Translations under genes and position numbers: made by a program
Part shown: in pieces, positions 42,271 through 55,667 of the stretch
How positions within the stretch are numbered: position 1 is the first letter of the stretch
Layout: the number at the start of each line of letters is the position of its first letter
The notes under the pieces: model-generated
Database searches by the model: none
What the model saw: the letters and a program-made list of their open reading frames with translations, nothing else
What the model was told of the DNA's origin: nothing
NCBI RefSeq assembly: GCF_048403405.1
Contig: NZ_CP183129.1
Reading direction: 5' to 3' (one strand)
Source of the DNA: Escherichia coli
GTDB lineage: Bacteria > Pseudomonadota > Gammaproteobacteria > Enterobacterales > Enterobacteriaceae
DNA length: 64,000 nucleotides

Positions 42271-42313
42271 ATCTGACAAAATCAATATAAACAGCCCCTC
42301 CGGAGAGGGGCTG
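42271..42313 (-). terminator. intrinsic terminator (minus strand) upstream of lysis cassette
   Basis: Hairpin CAGCCCCTC-CGGA-GAGGGGCTG followed on minus strand by TTTATATTGATTTT. Confidence 0.5.
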
Positions 42314-42610
42314 GAGAGTGGCGCTATGTGCCATTGCATGGTGCCGGGTGCCTCCCGGTGAATTCAGTACCAGCACCTGAATCCGCGATTATCCCATATA
42401 CCTACTCGCTGATTGCCCCTCCGCACAGGGGGATTCACCATGCCAGTTTCTTTTAACAAACTCCCCGCAAACCAGACAACAGTCAACCGCCTGAATTGTG
42501 AAGTATTTAAAAATTTCTCCCGCTAACTGATACCCGGCTAACAGTCTGGCGTTTTCTTTTTCAGCAACGGGAAAGCAACAACCACCACACCCACCAGCCG
42601 CCCATTTACC

Positions 42611-45744: not shown

Positions 45745-45960
45745 CAGAATCCTTCCGGATAATTAGCTCTCCCCTTTAAGGGACCATCCCTCTTATCCCT
45801 GCGCGCTACTTAAGTATTTTTGATTCTATTCCGGCACCGTCCAGAACTTCAAATGCGTTGAAAATAAAAACAAAAACCCGCCGAAGCGGGTTAAGTGCGG
45901 GTGCGTTGAGGATGCCTGCCACATCAGAGGTGGCGAGGGATTTCTCCCTCGCCTGGTCTC

Positions 45961-46116
45961 TTACTCCTCAGGTTCGTAAGCTGTGAAGACAGCGACCTCC
46001 GTCTGGCCGGTTCGGATTCGTACCTCGCAGAGGTCTTTCCTCGTTACCAGTGCCGTCACTATGACGGTTAAACAGATGACGATCAGGGCGATTAACATCG
46101 CCTTTTGCTGCTTCAT
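45961..46116 (-). CDS. hok: Hok/Gef-family type I toxin (51 aa)
   Basis: Translation MKQQKAMLIALIVICLTVIVTALVTRKDLCEVRIRTGQTEVAVFTAYEPEE is a canonical Hok-family peptide; not in the ORF track (below size cut-off). Confidence 0.85.
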   Translation of the reverse strand: MKQQKAMLIALIVICLTVIVTALVTRKDLCEVRIRTGQTEVAVFTAYEPEE

Positions 46117-46129
46117 AGCCTGCTTCTCC

Positions 46130-46230
46130 TTGACCTTTCGGTCCGTAAGAGGCTAATCTCTATGTGTCGCATAGATATGGCCTCAGATTAATGTTAAGCG
46201 TCTTGCAGGACGCGTAATGTTAACTGGGGC
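46130..46230 (+). ncRNA. sok: expected Sok-type antisense RNA / mok leader region of hok locus (location approximate)
   Basis: By analogy with hok/sok loci the antisense RNA overlaps the hok mRNA leader; exact ends not determined. Confidence 0.3.
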
Positions 46231-46374
46231 TTTTCTCTATCTGCCTTTTGGTGTTCATGCCTGAGACAGATAGCCTCAAGCACCCGCAGTTATTCTACTT
46301 AACTAAGATTTCCCCGCAAACCGTTTTTGTCCGGCACAGTAAATATCCAACTAAACCAATGGCGTTCGCTGTAT

Positions 46375-46554
46375 TTACCGCCAGTATTCAATGCACATGA
46401 CCGCCATGAACACCCCTAAAAAAAGGGCATTTATATGTCCAAACATTAATATCAAAACATCAATTTTTTCCATATACCTTGCTGTGAAGATGATGGGCAT
46501 ACATGATGCGAACAACCAGAACGCAACAAACAAAAACTGCAATGCGTTTTTCAT
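46375..46554 (-). CDS. hypothetical small membrane protein (2 TM)
   Basis: 59-aa ORF with two hydrophobic segments. Confidence 0.4.
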   Translation of the reverse strand: MKNALQFLFVAFWLFASCMPIIFTARYMEKIDVLILMFGHINALFLGVFMAVMCIEYWR

Positions 46555-46674
46555 TATTCCCCCTACAATCAATGTGCAATAACATTTAAACACACCTCAA
46601 TTTGGCCGGACATATAAATATCTAAACCAGAAAAAATCACTTACATAGCGTTACAAACTCTTTAGTCTAAATAT

Positions 46675-54282: not shown

Positions 54283-54584
54283 TTTATTCACAGGTGAGGT
54301 AGAGTGCGTGCGCCGGACACGGATAAGAATCCGGCACTGACAGTTTACTAAAAAGGATATATCCCTGAAAAGTCAGGGCATAACACGAAAGCGCCCGGCG
54401 AAGTTAGTCTCTCTGTATAGGTCGTCGTTAAATTTAATTCGATCGTGCGCTTCCGGTTGTGGCAATCCGCGAAATGGCGCGGCGGTAAGTATGGCTGGGG
54501 TTTCCTCCATTGCTCCAGAAAATGCACCGGGTTGTCAGGTTGACCATACGCTTAAGTGACAGCCCCGCCACAATACCCATGTGT

Positions 54585-54637
54585 AGTCTTTGGTGGCATC
54601 AGTTCTACTCCGTGACTGCTCTGCCACCCTTTTTAAA
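54585..54637 (+). ncRNA. dicF: DicF-like small RNA (3' stem-loop/terminator region conserved)
   Basis: TTTGGTGGCATCAGTTCTACTCCGTGACTGCTCTGCCACCCTTTTT closely matches recalled DicF 3' portion, with compensatory stem changes GGCGG/CCGCC to GGTGG/CCACC. Confidence 0.55.
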
Positions 54638-54812
54638 GTGAATTTTGTGATGCGGTGAATGCGGCTAAGCGCACGCGGAACAGTTAAAACCAAAAACAGT
54701 GTTATGGGTGGATTCTCTGTATCCGGCGTTAATTGTTAACTGGTTAACGTCACCTGGAGGCACCAGGCACCGCATCAACAAAGTTCACTTCGGTGATGAA
54801 AGGTAAGAGAAA

Positions 54813-55667
54813 ATGTTGAATGTAGCTATTGAAAACCAGAACGGGTGGAATTATAGTGCACCTGCACCTCATAAAACGGGTGCCGGGCGTGGAAACCCGG
54901 AATTCAATCAAGCGCATAACCGCGCTCAGGCGGTTTTTTTATGCGTCAAGCACAGCCACATTCAGATTATGGTGGGGCGTGCAGGGCAGCTGCAAGGCTG
55001 GCCGGATTCTTGGTTGACCGGTATTTCCACCCCTGTACGCCTCACCACCCTTATGGTCGTGGAAAACCTTGGTGGTGAGTTATTAATACTCAACCAAGAG
55101 GCTGCCATTATGGCTACTATCCCTACCCTTTCTCACCCTGACGTAACCATCGAAAATGGTCGCGCTGTCACTACGTCTGTTGCGGTTGCAGAGTTCTTCC
55201 GCAAAATGCACAAGGACGTTCTGCGCAAAATTGAAACGCTAGAATGCTCTGAAGATTTTAACGAGCGCAATTTTACGCCCGTTACCTACACCGACGCCAA
55301 AGGCGAAAAACGCCCCATGTACCAAATCACCAAAAACGGCTTCGTTTTCCTGGTGATGGGGTTCACAGGTAAAAAAGCCGCAACTTTCAAAGAAGCCTAC
55401 ATCGCTGAGTTCGATCGCATGGAGGAAGAACTGCGCCAGAATAACGCCCCGTCTCCCGACAAAATGATTCACGGGGACGGACGCACCCTGGTTATCCGTC
55501 TCGACGAACACGGCAATATCAAATTCACTGAAACCGTTCCTGACGGCGCAATGGTCTGCACCCTGGATACCTTCCGGTTTTATCTGGAGAAACAAGGATG
55601 GACTCTTGTAAACCGGAGCGCAATTAAAAATATGACTGTGGAGCAATTGCTAAAAATTCATTGTTGA
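54813..55667 (+). CDS. Rha-family phage regulatory protein (possible antirepressor); start uncertain
   Basis: C-terminal 185 aa carry Rha-like motifs (AVAEFF.K.H..VLR.I ... MGFTGKKA..FKEAYI.EFDRMEEEL); alternative start at 55110. Confidence 0.65.
   Translation: MLNVAIENQNGWNYSAPAPHKTGAGRGNPEFNQAHNRAQAVFLCVKHSHIQIMVGRAGQLQGWPDSWLTGISTPVRLTTLMVVENLGGELLILNQEAAIMATIPTLSHPDVTIENGRAVTTSVAVAEFFRKMHKDVLRKIETLECSEDFNERNFTPVTYTDAKGEKRPMYQITKNGFVFLVMGFTGKKAATFKEAYIAEFDRMEEELRQNNAPSPDKMIHGDGRTLVIRLDEHGNIKFTETVPDGAMVCTLDTFRFYLEKQGWTLVNRSAIKNMTVEQLLKIHC

What the first reader, a model, noticed from the sequence alone, without database searches (positions are those of the whole stretch)
45840..46330. hok-type type I toxin-antitoxin locus missed by the ORF track
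A 51-aa canonical Hok peptide (MKQQKAMLIALIVICLTVIVTALVTRKDLCEVRIRTGQTEVAVFTAYEPEE) is encoded on the minus strand at 45961-46116, with a downstream terminator hairpin (AACCCGC-CGAA-GCGGGTT) and a roughly 200-nt structured leader where the sok-like antisense RNA and mok frame are expected. It sits in a ydfU-like / rem-like / hok arrangement reminiscent of Qin. Such loci stabilise the prophage and can contribute to abortive infection.
Basis: partly seen in the sequence, partly recalled or inferred. Interest (0 to 1): 0.35.

Follow-up and report, generated by a model that had tools for sequence, protein, structure and literature searches.

The report
Intact hokD-type hok/sok toxin-antitoxin cassette
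This is an ordinary, already catalogued hok/sok-type toxin-antitoxin cassette in a lambda-like E. coli prophage: the complete form of the hokD gene, which in the K-12 lab strain survives only as a fragment.

Summary
A 51-aa ORF at 45961-46116 (-) is a Hok/Gef peptide (Pfam E=1.2e-23), identical to K-12 HokD/RelF. It follows a 169-nt leader that scores 106.7 bits against Rfam RF01794 (threshold 59) and precedes a terminator at 45892-45875.

All regulatory parts of the R1 hok/sok model can be placed:
- a 5' tac element that pairs with a 3' fbi element about 375 nt away;
- a ucb box that pairs with the mok Shine-Dalgarno;
- the Sok-target hairpin;
- a divergent Sok promoter (TTGACC-18-TAATCT);
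- a Sok RNA of about 70 nt.

The 601 bp around the locus (45800-46400) is 100% identical in many E. coli chromosomes, where RefSeq calls the gene hokD. The closest fully annotated and tested relative is hokW/mokW/sokW of Stx phage 933W/Sp5 (90.7% DNA identity).

Unlike K-12, where relBE replaces everything more than about 16 nt upstream of the ATG, this copy is complete.

One small departure: this allele's target hairpin is 2 nt shorter. As a result mok is a 19-codon ORF whose UGA overlaps the hok AUG.

Verdict: real, correctly interpreted, already known, low interest. The biological role was not tested.

The parts
46292..46319 (-). Predicted hok/mok mRNA promoter: -35 TTGCGG (46319-46314), 16-nt spacer, -10 TAGAAT (46297-46292); +1 about G46285
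   Evidence: Read from the sequence. The -35 matches only 3 of 6, so the consensus scan did not list the site. The -10 and +1 region is conserved among relatives, while sequence upstream of about 46301 is not. The +1 is inferred from Rfam model position 1.
45866..46285 (-). Predicted full-length hok mRNA (about 416-420 nt)
   Evidence: MFE -169.5 kcal/mol, z=-7.39 against 100 shuffles. The ends are inferred from the Rfam match and the terminator.
46274..46285 (-). tac (translational activator) element, GGGUGCUUGAGG, at the mRNA 5' end
   Evidence: Pairs with 45899-45911 in both the MFE and the centroid of the full-length RNA. Pairs with ucb when the leader is folded alone. Diversity there is 0.009 across the 91 distinct full-length sequences from the sampled related loci.
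46250..46267 (-). Partner of tac in the alternative 5' 'metastable' hairpin
   Evidence: In the 3'-shortened RNA, the MFE pairs 46285-46273 with 46250-46267. This matches the metastable hairpin described for R1 (PMC9841398).
46224..46233 (-). ucb (upstream complementary box), AAAGCCCCAG
   Evidence: In the full-length fold it pairs with the mok SD region 46185-46180. In the leader-only fold and in the Rfam consensus it pairs with tac. Diversity there is 0.011.
46149..46184 (-). Sok-target (sokT) hairpin: mok SD GAGG (46184-46181), mok AUG (46172-46170), 5-nt loop CGACA, and dcb GCCUC (46153-46149)
   Evidence: Rfam consensus hairpin; local fold -12.9 kcal/mol. It is the most variable part of the cassette (diversity 0.25-0.37). 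This exact allele occurs in 776 E. coli records at 99% identity or more.
46113..46172 (-). mok-like leader ORF: 19 codons (MRHIEISLLRTERSRRSRL); its UGA overlaps the hok AUG (AUGA)
   Evidence: The start aligns with the mok/mokW AUG of R1, Rac and 933W. The AUG-to-AUG spacing is 56 nt here, against 57 or 58 in relatives.
46126..46131 (-). hok Shine-Dalgarno, AAGGAG
   Evidence: Sequence. Homology with K-12 hokD begins here.
45961..46116 (-). hok CDS, 51 aa, identical to K-12 HokD/RelF
   Evidence: Annotated as hokD in identical RefSeq DNA.
45932..45953 (-). 3'-UTR hairpin, GGCGAGGGAGAAAUCCCUCGCC
   Evidence: Present in both the MFE and the centroid.
45899..45911 (-). fbi (fold-back inhibitory) element, CCUCAACGCACCC
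   Evidence: Forms 12 pairs and one bulge with tac. A complementary site lies at the same distance (352-390 nt) in R1-type, Vibrio and Aeromonas loci, with compensating changes.
45866..45892 (-). Rho-independent terminator of hok mRNA
   Evidence: stem 45892-45875, then a T-run. Sequence conservation among relatives stops here.
46130..46159 (+). Predicted Sok promoter: -35 TTGACC (46130-46135), 18-nt spacer, -10 TAATCT (46154-46159)
   Evidence: Sequence. The -10 reads TAAYCT in all 21 alleles sampled. The homologous TAACCT of sokW is what the 'pro-less' mutant changed, which unmasked HokW toxicity (PMC8621323). The -10 matches only 3 of 6, so the consensus scan did not call it.
46166..46236 (+). 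Predicted Sok antisense RNA (about 70 nt): 13-nt single-stranded 5' tail, a long hairpin, then GGGGCUUUUCU
   Evidence: Fold -29.5 kcal/mol, z=-5.57. The position corresponds to the sokW feature annotated in 933W on the strand opposite hokW. It is fully complementary to the mok SD and AUG. The ends are inferred, not mapped.

Best explanation
This is a complete hokD-type (hokW-like) hok/mok/sok type I toxin-antitoxin cassette, about 430 bp, in the nin region of a Qin/Rac-like lambdoid prophage of E. coli.

Proposed mechanism, inferred from the R1 and hokW models:
1. A weak promoter produces a stable mRNA of about 416 nt. Pairing of its 5' tac element with its 3' fbi element locks it shut, and ucb covers the mok Shine-Dalgarno.
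2. Slow 3' trimming removes fbi. tac then pairs with ucb, and the mok SD and AUG are presented in the sokT hairpin.
3. Sok, an unstable antisense RNA of about 70 nt made from a divergent promoter inside the locus, pairs with that region. This blocks mok translation and marks the duplex for RNase III.
4. When Sok supply stops, ribosomes translate the 19-codon mok ORF and run through the hok SD to a UGA that overlaps the hok AUG. This switches on hok.
5. The 51-aa Hok peptide inserts into the inner membrane and kills or lyses the cell.

Shown here: the sequence elements, their complementarity, the predicted folds and the homology. Inferred: transcription, processing, coupling, toxicity of this copy and its trigger.
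For: - Pfam HOK_GEF E=1.2e-23.
- Rfam RF01794 at 106.7 bits over the full model.
- The CDS and 3' UTR are near-identical to K-12 hokD. The 601 bp at 45800-46400 is 100% identical to RefSeq loci annotated hokD.
- 90.7% DNA identity to 933W hokW/mokW/sokW, which are annotated on the expected strands and shown experimentally to be a type I TA (PMC8621323).
- tac-fbi pairing appears in the MFE and the centroid, z=-7.4, and is kept through compensating changes in distant loci.
- ucb pairs with the mok SD in the full-length fold and with tac in the leader-only fold, as described for R1 (PMC9841398).
- The Sok -10 is homologous to the mutated sokW -10. The Sok fold has z=-5.6.
- In R1, mok translation is needed only as far as the hok initiation region (PMC9841398), which fits a 19-codon mok.
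- This allele is present in about 14% of complete E. coli genomes.
- Conservation stops sharply at the -10 and at the terminator.
Against: - No expression data were available here; the RNA ends and both promoters are predictions.
- Both promoters fall below the consensus scan's threshold.
- The target loop of this allele is 5 nt (CGACA) and lacks the YUNR U-turn motif found in R1 and most alleles, so Sok binding could be slower.
- mok is out of register with both known arrangements.
- Chromosomal hokA, hokB and hokC loci tested earlier did not give post-segregational killing.
- For the 3'-shortened RNA, the MFE chose the 5' metastable hairpin rather than tac/ucb.
Confidence: 0.85

Rival explanations
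1. The cassette looks intact but is physiologically silent: a selfish passenger or a decaying copy that never releases Hok under natural conditions.
For: [quoted passage not shown]
- K-12 hokD itself is a truncated remnant.
- This allele has a 2-nt shorter target loop without YUNR, and a mok shortened to 19 codons.
- The predicted hok promoter has a poor -35.
Against: - Every regulatory element is present and complementary.
- The hok CDS is almost invariant among the sampled relatives (diversity about 0-0.05).
- The allele is found in 776 E. coli records.
- The 90.7%-identical hokW-sokW is active from its native prophage.
- Two other common alleles also lack YUNR.
Confidence: 0.2
2. Role: a lysis helper. 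Prophage induction removes Sok, and Hok damages the inner membrane early and increases phage release, as proposed for hokW-sokW of Sp5.
For: The closest tested relative behaves this way: mitomycin C removes sokW RNA, HokW appears in a RecA-dependent manner, and phage yield halves in the deletion mutant (PMC8621323). The window prophage carries replication, Q, holin and lysozyme genes around the locus.
Against: The evidence is a single study, a 2-fold effect, and a different position in the phage genome: near the right end in 933W, in the nin region here. Whether this prophage can be induced is unknown.
Confidence: 0.35
3. Role: addiction or defence. Either the cassette kills cells that lose the prophage, or it causes abortive infection when an incoming phage shuts off host transcription.
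For: R1 hok/sok stabilises plasmids and reduced T4 plating by 42% when carried on a high-copy plasmid (cited). hok genes are about 4-fold enriched in prophages.
Against: Neither role has been shown for a hokD-type prophage copy. Chromosomal hok loci failed post-segregational killing tests, and no enrichment near defence systems was found. PADLOC was not searched here.
Confidence: 0.3

Closest known systems
hokW / mokW / sokW of Stx2 phage 933W (= Sakai prophage Sp5)
   Same: - 90.7% DNA identity over 93% of the locus.
- The Hok peptides are identical except in the last 8 residues, where 5 differ.
- The tac, ucb and fbi sequences are the same.
- Sok lies on the opposite strand at the same place.
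- The Sok -10 is homologous: TAACCT there, TAATCT here.
- It has been shown experimentally to be a type I TA.
   Different: - mokW is in frame with hokW (57-nt spacing, 70-aa product), whereas here the spacing is 56 nt and mok stops at the hok AUG.
- The target-hairpin sequence differs: loop CUGAACA there, CGACA here.
- In 933W the homology ends before a terminator like the one here.
- 933W carries the locus near its right end, not in the nin region.
hokD (relF) of E. coli K-12 cryptic prophage Qin
   Same: The CDS is identical. The 3' UTR, including fbi and the terminator, is near-identical (3 SNPs). rem and ydfU lie downstream in both.
   Different: In K-12, relB-relE replaces everything upstream of the hok SD. 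It therefore has no promoter of its own, no tac, ucb, mok or sokT, and no Sok gene, and hokD is co-transcribed as relBEF (PMC3598666). The window copy keeps all of these.
hok/mok/sok (parB) of plasmid R1
   Same: The architecture is the same, and both fit the same Rfam leader model. Both have tac-fbi, ucb and sokT elements and an antisense promoter at the same place.
   Different: Hok is only about 43% identical. R1 mok has 70 codons in the -1 frame at 58-nt spacing. The window's Sok hairpin carries a 16-nt insertion relative to the Rfam consensus. R1 is a plasmid locus; this one is in a prophage.
hok/mok in the 'Escherichia phage Rac' record MN652886 and in P1-like/IncY phage-plasmids
   Same: 88-94% DNA identity. 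In Rac, the hok-rem order is the same.
   Different: In Rac and in the P1-like record the spacing is 58 nt, giving an R1-like 68-aa Mok, and the sokT allele differs.

Membership tests
Hok/Gef toxin family (Pfam PF01848) | Small hydrophobic peptide that matches the HOK_GEF profile above the gathering score | tested here: met
   82.9 bits against a cutoff of 22, E=1.2e-23, covering profile positions 1-42 of 42. PHROG 251 at E=2.8e-33. The NCBIfam Hok subfamily and HokA models score below their cutoffs (48.5 against 73; 40.2 against 89), so those particular models do not claim it.
hok/sok type I TA locus (R1 paradigm) | Conserved structured hok mRNA leader (Rfam RF01794) | tested here: met
   106.7 bits against a gathering score of 59, over the full model 1-157. 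The match is on the hok sense strand and ends at the hok AUG.
hok/sok type I TA locus (R1 paradigm) | Long-range pairing between the 5' tac and 3' fbi elements that closes the full-length mRNA | tested here: met
   12 pairs between 46285-46274 and 45911-45899 in the MFE and the centroid. The equivalent pairing with compensating changes is found in R1-type, Vibrio and Aeromonas loci. This is prediction only; no structure probing was done.
hok/sok type I TA locus (R1 paradigm) | Alternative pairings: ucb with the mok SD in the inactive form; tac with ucb and the mok SD with dcb in the active form | tested here: met
   ucb pairs with the mok SD in the full-length fold. tac pairs with ucb in the leader-only fold. 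The SD-dcb hairpin is in the Rfam consensus alignment. For the 3'-shortened RNA the MFE chose the metastable 5' hairpin instead.
hok/sok type I TA locus (R1 paradigm) | A mok leader ORF that starts in the Sok target and is translated at least as far as the hok initiation region | tested here: met
   ATG 46172 with GAGG 8 nt upstream; 19 codons; the UGA overlaps the hok AUG. It is shorter than the 70-codon R1 mok, but R1 data show that translation beyond the hok start is dispensable. Coupling itself was not tested.
hok/sok type I TA locus (R1 paradigm) | A cis-encoded antisense Sok RNA with its own promoter, overlapping the mok translation start | tested here: inconclusive
   The promoter (TTGACC-18-TAATCT), the hairpin and the U-run can all be placed. 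They are homologous to the annotated and mutated sokW. No transcript evidence exists for this allele, and the consensus scan did not call the promoter.
hok/sok type I TA locus (R1 paradigm) | Toxicity of Hok, neutralisation by Sok, RNase III cleavage and 3' processing | not testable with these tools
   Only literature on relatives is available. HokD was used as a toxic control, and hokW-sokW has been characterised.
K-12-type relBEF operon (hokD fused behind relBE) | relB-relE immediately upstream of hok, with no hok leader | tested here: not met
   The window has a full leader and no relBE; homology to K-12 ends about 16 nt upstream of the ATG. It shares the toxin gene with K-12 but not the operon arrangement.

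The most novel reading that the evidence does not exclude
The 36-38-nt Sok-target hairpin may be a fast-evolving cassette inside an otherwise frozen module. At least 21 alleles exist, and they place mok in all three registers relative to hok.

The window's 2-nt-shorter allele is a natural 'minimal mok'. It would couple hok to a 19-codon leader purely by termination-reinitiation at an AUGA overlap, and it would work without the YUNR U-turn loop thought to speed Sok binding.

If this allele is fully functional, it would show in nature that neither the Mok peptide, nor its frame, nor the U-turn is required.
Probability: 0.4. Interest if true: 0.3.

Novelty: already known. Interest (0 to 1): 0.1.

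Why it matters
There is little to gain from the finding itself. It confirms that the window carries a standard prophage-borne type I toxin-antitoxin module, and the identical sequence is already annotated as hokD in hundreds of genomes.

Three points have practical value:
1. RefSeq annotates only the toxin CDS. The antitoxin RNA, mok and the mRNA boundaries given here complete the annotation.
2. K-12 hokD is a poor reference, because it is a relBE-fused fragment.
3. The Rfam family named 'sok' reports the hok strand, so using its strand as the antitoxin strand is wrong.

The allele series at the Sok target (56, 57 or 58-nt spacing) is a ready-made natural experiment on how mok couples to hok.

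Tried and rejected
1. The consensus promoter scan found neither the hok nor the Sok promoter. Both have one hexamer matching only 3 of 6, so they were placed by homology instead.

2. I tested whether co-resident hokD-type copies carry different Sok-target alleles, which would insulate them from each other. Among 18 within-genome pairs from IMG/VR, 8 shared an allele against about 2 expected. The idea is not supported. Duplicate or fragmented assemblies may inflate the count.

3. RNAalifold on a MAFFT alignment of 11 leaders recovered only tac/ucb, one hairpin and part of the hok-SD stem, with 2 compensatory pairs. The alignment of distant members is poor, and I included a stray 10-nt sequence by mistake. 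I do not rely on this result; the Rfam scores and the explicit tac/fbi table carry the argument.

4. tac-fbi duplex energy alone is only about 2.7 sd better than shuffled targets. Position and covariation, not energy, are the evidence.

5. The sub-threshold Rfam hits in the locus are treated as terminator or hairpin look-alikes: isrK at 25.7 bits, ceN48 and rsmX.

6. Absence of YUNR was considered as a sign of a defective allele. It was rejected as evidence, because two other common alleles also lack it and all alleles keep a hairpin of -10 to -15 kcal/mol.

7. The R1-type mok frame (-1) is open across hok in the window but has no ATG, GTG or TTG start after the upstream stop, so it is not the mok of this allele.

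Full report

Yes.
- It matches Pfam HOK_GEF (PF01848) at E=1.2e-23, 82.9 bits against a cutoff of 22.
- It matches PHROG 251 'MokW-like host killing' at E=2.8e-33.
- A terminator lies downstream: stem 45892-45875, 7 pairs, then a T-run. It is the only terminator-like site in the 1-kb scan.
- Upstream, Rfam RF01794 matches 46285-46114 over the whole model at 106.7 bits against a gathering score of 59, E=1.5e-24. It is one of only six Rfam hits above threshold in the whole window.
- The predicted 416-nt transcript folds far better than shuffles: -169.5 against -123.7 +/- 6.2 kcal/mol, z=-7.4.

**2. What is it?**

The 601 bp around the locus (45800-46400) is 100% identical to many E. coli chromosomes, where PGAP names the CDS hokD. 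In one such genome the neighbours are a lambdoid prophage early-right/nin region, in this order: DnaT-like, P, several small genes, HNH, hokD, rem, a 92-aa gene, DUF968 (ydfU-like), RusA, Q, holin, lysozyme.

Aligning the window with K-12 is informative. The two are identical through the CDS and differ by 3 SNPs in the 3' UTR. Homology stops about 16 nt upstream of the ATG, where K-12 has the end of relE. K-12 hokD is therefore a fragment driven by the relBEF promoter (PMC3598666). The window carries the complete locus.

The closest fully annotated relative is phage 933W. It is 90.7% identical over 93% of the locus, and hokW, mokW and an opposite-strand sokW RNA are annotated there. Related copies occur in a phage Rac record, in P1-like phage-plasmids and in IncY plasmids.

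**3. Anatomy**

On the minus strand:
- **hok promoter.** -35 TTGCGG (46319-46314), -10 TAGAAT (46297-46292), +1 about G46285.
- **tac.** GGGUGCUUGAGG, 46285-46274.
- **Metastable hairpin partner.** 46267-46250, which can pair with tac.
- **ucb.** AAAGCCCCAG, 46233-46224.
- **Long hairpin.** 46225-46186.
- **Sok-target hairpin.** 46184-46149. It holds the mok SD GAGG (46184-46181), the mok AUG (46172) and dcb GCCUC (46153-46149).
- **hok SD.** AAGGAG, 46131-46126.
- **hok CDS.** 46116-45961.
- **3' UTR hairpin.** 45953-45932.
- **fbi.** CCUCAACGCACCC, 45911-45899.
- **Terminator.** 45892-45866.

The folds behave as the R1 model requires:
- In the full-length RNA, both the MFE and the centroid pair tac with fbi across about 375 nt, and ucb covers the mok SD.
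- The leader on its own pairs tac with ucb.
- The Rfam consensus pairs the mok SD with dcb.

These are the inactive and active conformations described for R1 (PMC9841398).

A complementary site lies at the same distance (352-390 nt) in distant loci. The changes compensate:
- GGGUGC/GCACCC here becomes GGCGC/GCGCC in the R1 type.
- UUGAGG/CCUCAA here becomes CUCUUGG/CCAACGAG in a Vibrio plasmid.

On the plus strand:
- **Sok promoter.** -35 TTGACC (46130-46135), an 18-nt spacer, -10 TAATCT (46154-46159), +1 about 46166.
- **Sok RNA.** The product of about 70 nt has a 13-nt free 5' tail complementary to the mok AUG and target loop, then a long hairpin, then GGGGCUUUUCU (fold z=-5.6).
- **Promoter evidence.** The -10 reads TAAYCT in all 21 alleles sampled. 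It is the counterpart of the TAACCT that Takada et al. destroyed in their sokW 'pro-less' construct, which unmasked HokW toxicity (PMC8621323).

One caution on Rfam. The RF01794 model is labelled 'sok antitoxin', but it matches the hok sense strand and ends in the hok AUG. It identifies the leader, not the antisense RNA.

**4. The one departure: a short mok**

The AUG aligned with mok/mokW starts a 19-codon ORF (MRHIEISLLRTERSRRSRL) whose UGA overlaps the hok AUG as AUGA. Three spacings occur among relatives:
- 58 nt in R1, the IncFII Citrobacter plasmid, Rac and the P1-like record. mok is in the -1 frame and gives a 68-70-aa product.
- 57 nt in 933W, 640R1, HannyBb and PPompW. mok is in frame with hok and gives a 70-aa product.
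- 56 nt in the window.

Among 129 loci matched by a flank-anchored pattern (mostly from IMG/VR), the counts are 98 at 57 nt, 20 at 56 nt and 10 at 58 nt. One more locus has a mutated mok AUG.

The window's exact 80-nt target region occurs in 776 E. coli records at 99% identity or more, about 14% of genomes. It is therefore a common allele, not a private lesion. R1 genetics show that mok must be translated only as far as the hok initiation region (PMC9841398), so a 19-codon mok is compatible with coupling.

Diversity across the 91 distinct full-length sequences from the sampled loci:

| Region | Diversity |
|---|---|
| Target hairpin | 0.25-0.37 |
| hok CDS | about 0-0.05 |
| tac and ucb | about 0.01 |
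| Beyond about 46301 and about 45875 | above 0.4 |

The rise beyond about 46301 and about 45875 delimits the conserved cassette. The columns fixed by the search pattern are zero by construction.

All alleles keep a hairpin of -10 to -15 kcal/mol. Most have a 7-9-nt loop with a YUNR motif like that of R1. The window's loop is CGACA, without YUNR, and two other common alleles also lack it. What this means for Sok binding is unknown.

**5. Mechanism and role**

I take the R1/hokW mechanism as the working explanation. Its elements are a locked full-length mRNA, 3' trimming, refolding, Sok binding at the mok start, and mok-coupled Hok synthesis once Sok disappears.

Only the elements and their complementarity are shown here. 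Transcription, processing, coupling and toxicity are inferred.

The role is open:
- For the nearest tested relative, prophage induction removed sokW, HokW appeared in a RecA-dependent manner, and the locus doubled phage release.
- R1 hok/sok stabilises plasmids and modestly inhibits T4.
- Chromosomal hokA, hokB and hokC failed post-segregational killing tests, and hok genes are enriched about 4-fold in prophages.

**6. Comparison, novelty and verdict**

The locus meets every family feature that can be tested in silico. Sok expression and toxicity are untested. It is not a K-12-type relBEF arrangement.

The sequence is already in public annotation as hokD. The hokW-sokW locus of Sp5, the same phage type as the 933W record compared here, has been characterised. 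Interest is low. The only mildly new point is the 56-nt 'minimal mok' allele within a hypervariable Sok-target cassette.

Noticed in passing
window 54578-55052 (+), 42283-42472 (-), 13061-13259 (-): Other Rfam hits above threshold: DicF (54578-54629), isrK (54864-54940) and C4 antisense RNA (54965-55052) lie together, as in a Qin-type dicB/immunity region. STnc100 and IS009 lie elsewhere in the window.
   Followed up: no
window 45823-45852 (-): The only sigma-70-like site the scan called, TTGAAG-18-TAGAAT, sits just after the hok terminator and about 80 nt upstream of rem. It is conserved in K-12. It may be a rem promoter.
   Followed up: no
window 46375-46593 (-): A 72-aa very hydrophobic ORF lies directly upstream of the hok promoter. 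RefSeq does not annotate it in the identical locus, and it has no Pfam, NCBIfam or PHROG match. It is 92-93% conserved in three E. coli phages, and in two of them the overlapping annotation reads 'hornerin'.
   Followed up: partly
L017 1-560 (Citrobacter sp. Y3 plasmid NZ_CP050011.1): This plasmid has relB-relE followed by an R1-type hok (MKLPRSTLLW...). The relE/hok junction sequence is nearly the same as in K-12 relBEF, and there is no hok leader. The relBE-hok fusion therefore exists with a different hok subtype, which suggests recombination at the hok SD.
   Followed up: partly
window 45976-45978 (-), hok codon 47: Tyr47 is UAC followed by G (UACG), the kind of site reported to be A-to-I edited to Cys by TadA in hokB and also in hokC, hokD and hokE (bioRxiv 10.1101/2025.08.07.668861). 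Only the presence of the motif was seen; the local hairpin was not evaluated.
   Followed up: no
window 45871-45952 (-); L004 1860-1940: The hok 3' UTR (two hairpins including the terminator) gives weak, sub-threshold isrK matches: 25.7 bits in the window and 33.2 bits in the Rac record, against a gathering score of 50. This is probably only hairpin and terminator resemblance.
   Followed up: no
L010 (phage phi315) and related Stx phages, query positions 202-424: Several Traversvirus/Stx phages match only the 3' half of the locus, in two pieces, close to the integrase gene, and no hok is annotated there. This looks like a truncated hok remnant.
   Followed up: no
L117/L118 (same IMG/VR contig) and L137: Some viral contigs carry two hokD-type cassettes. 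On one contig the two have different Sok-target alleles, and one locus has two pattern matches.
   Followed up: no
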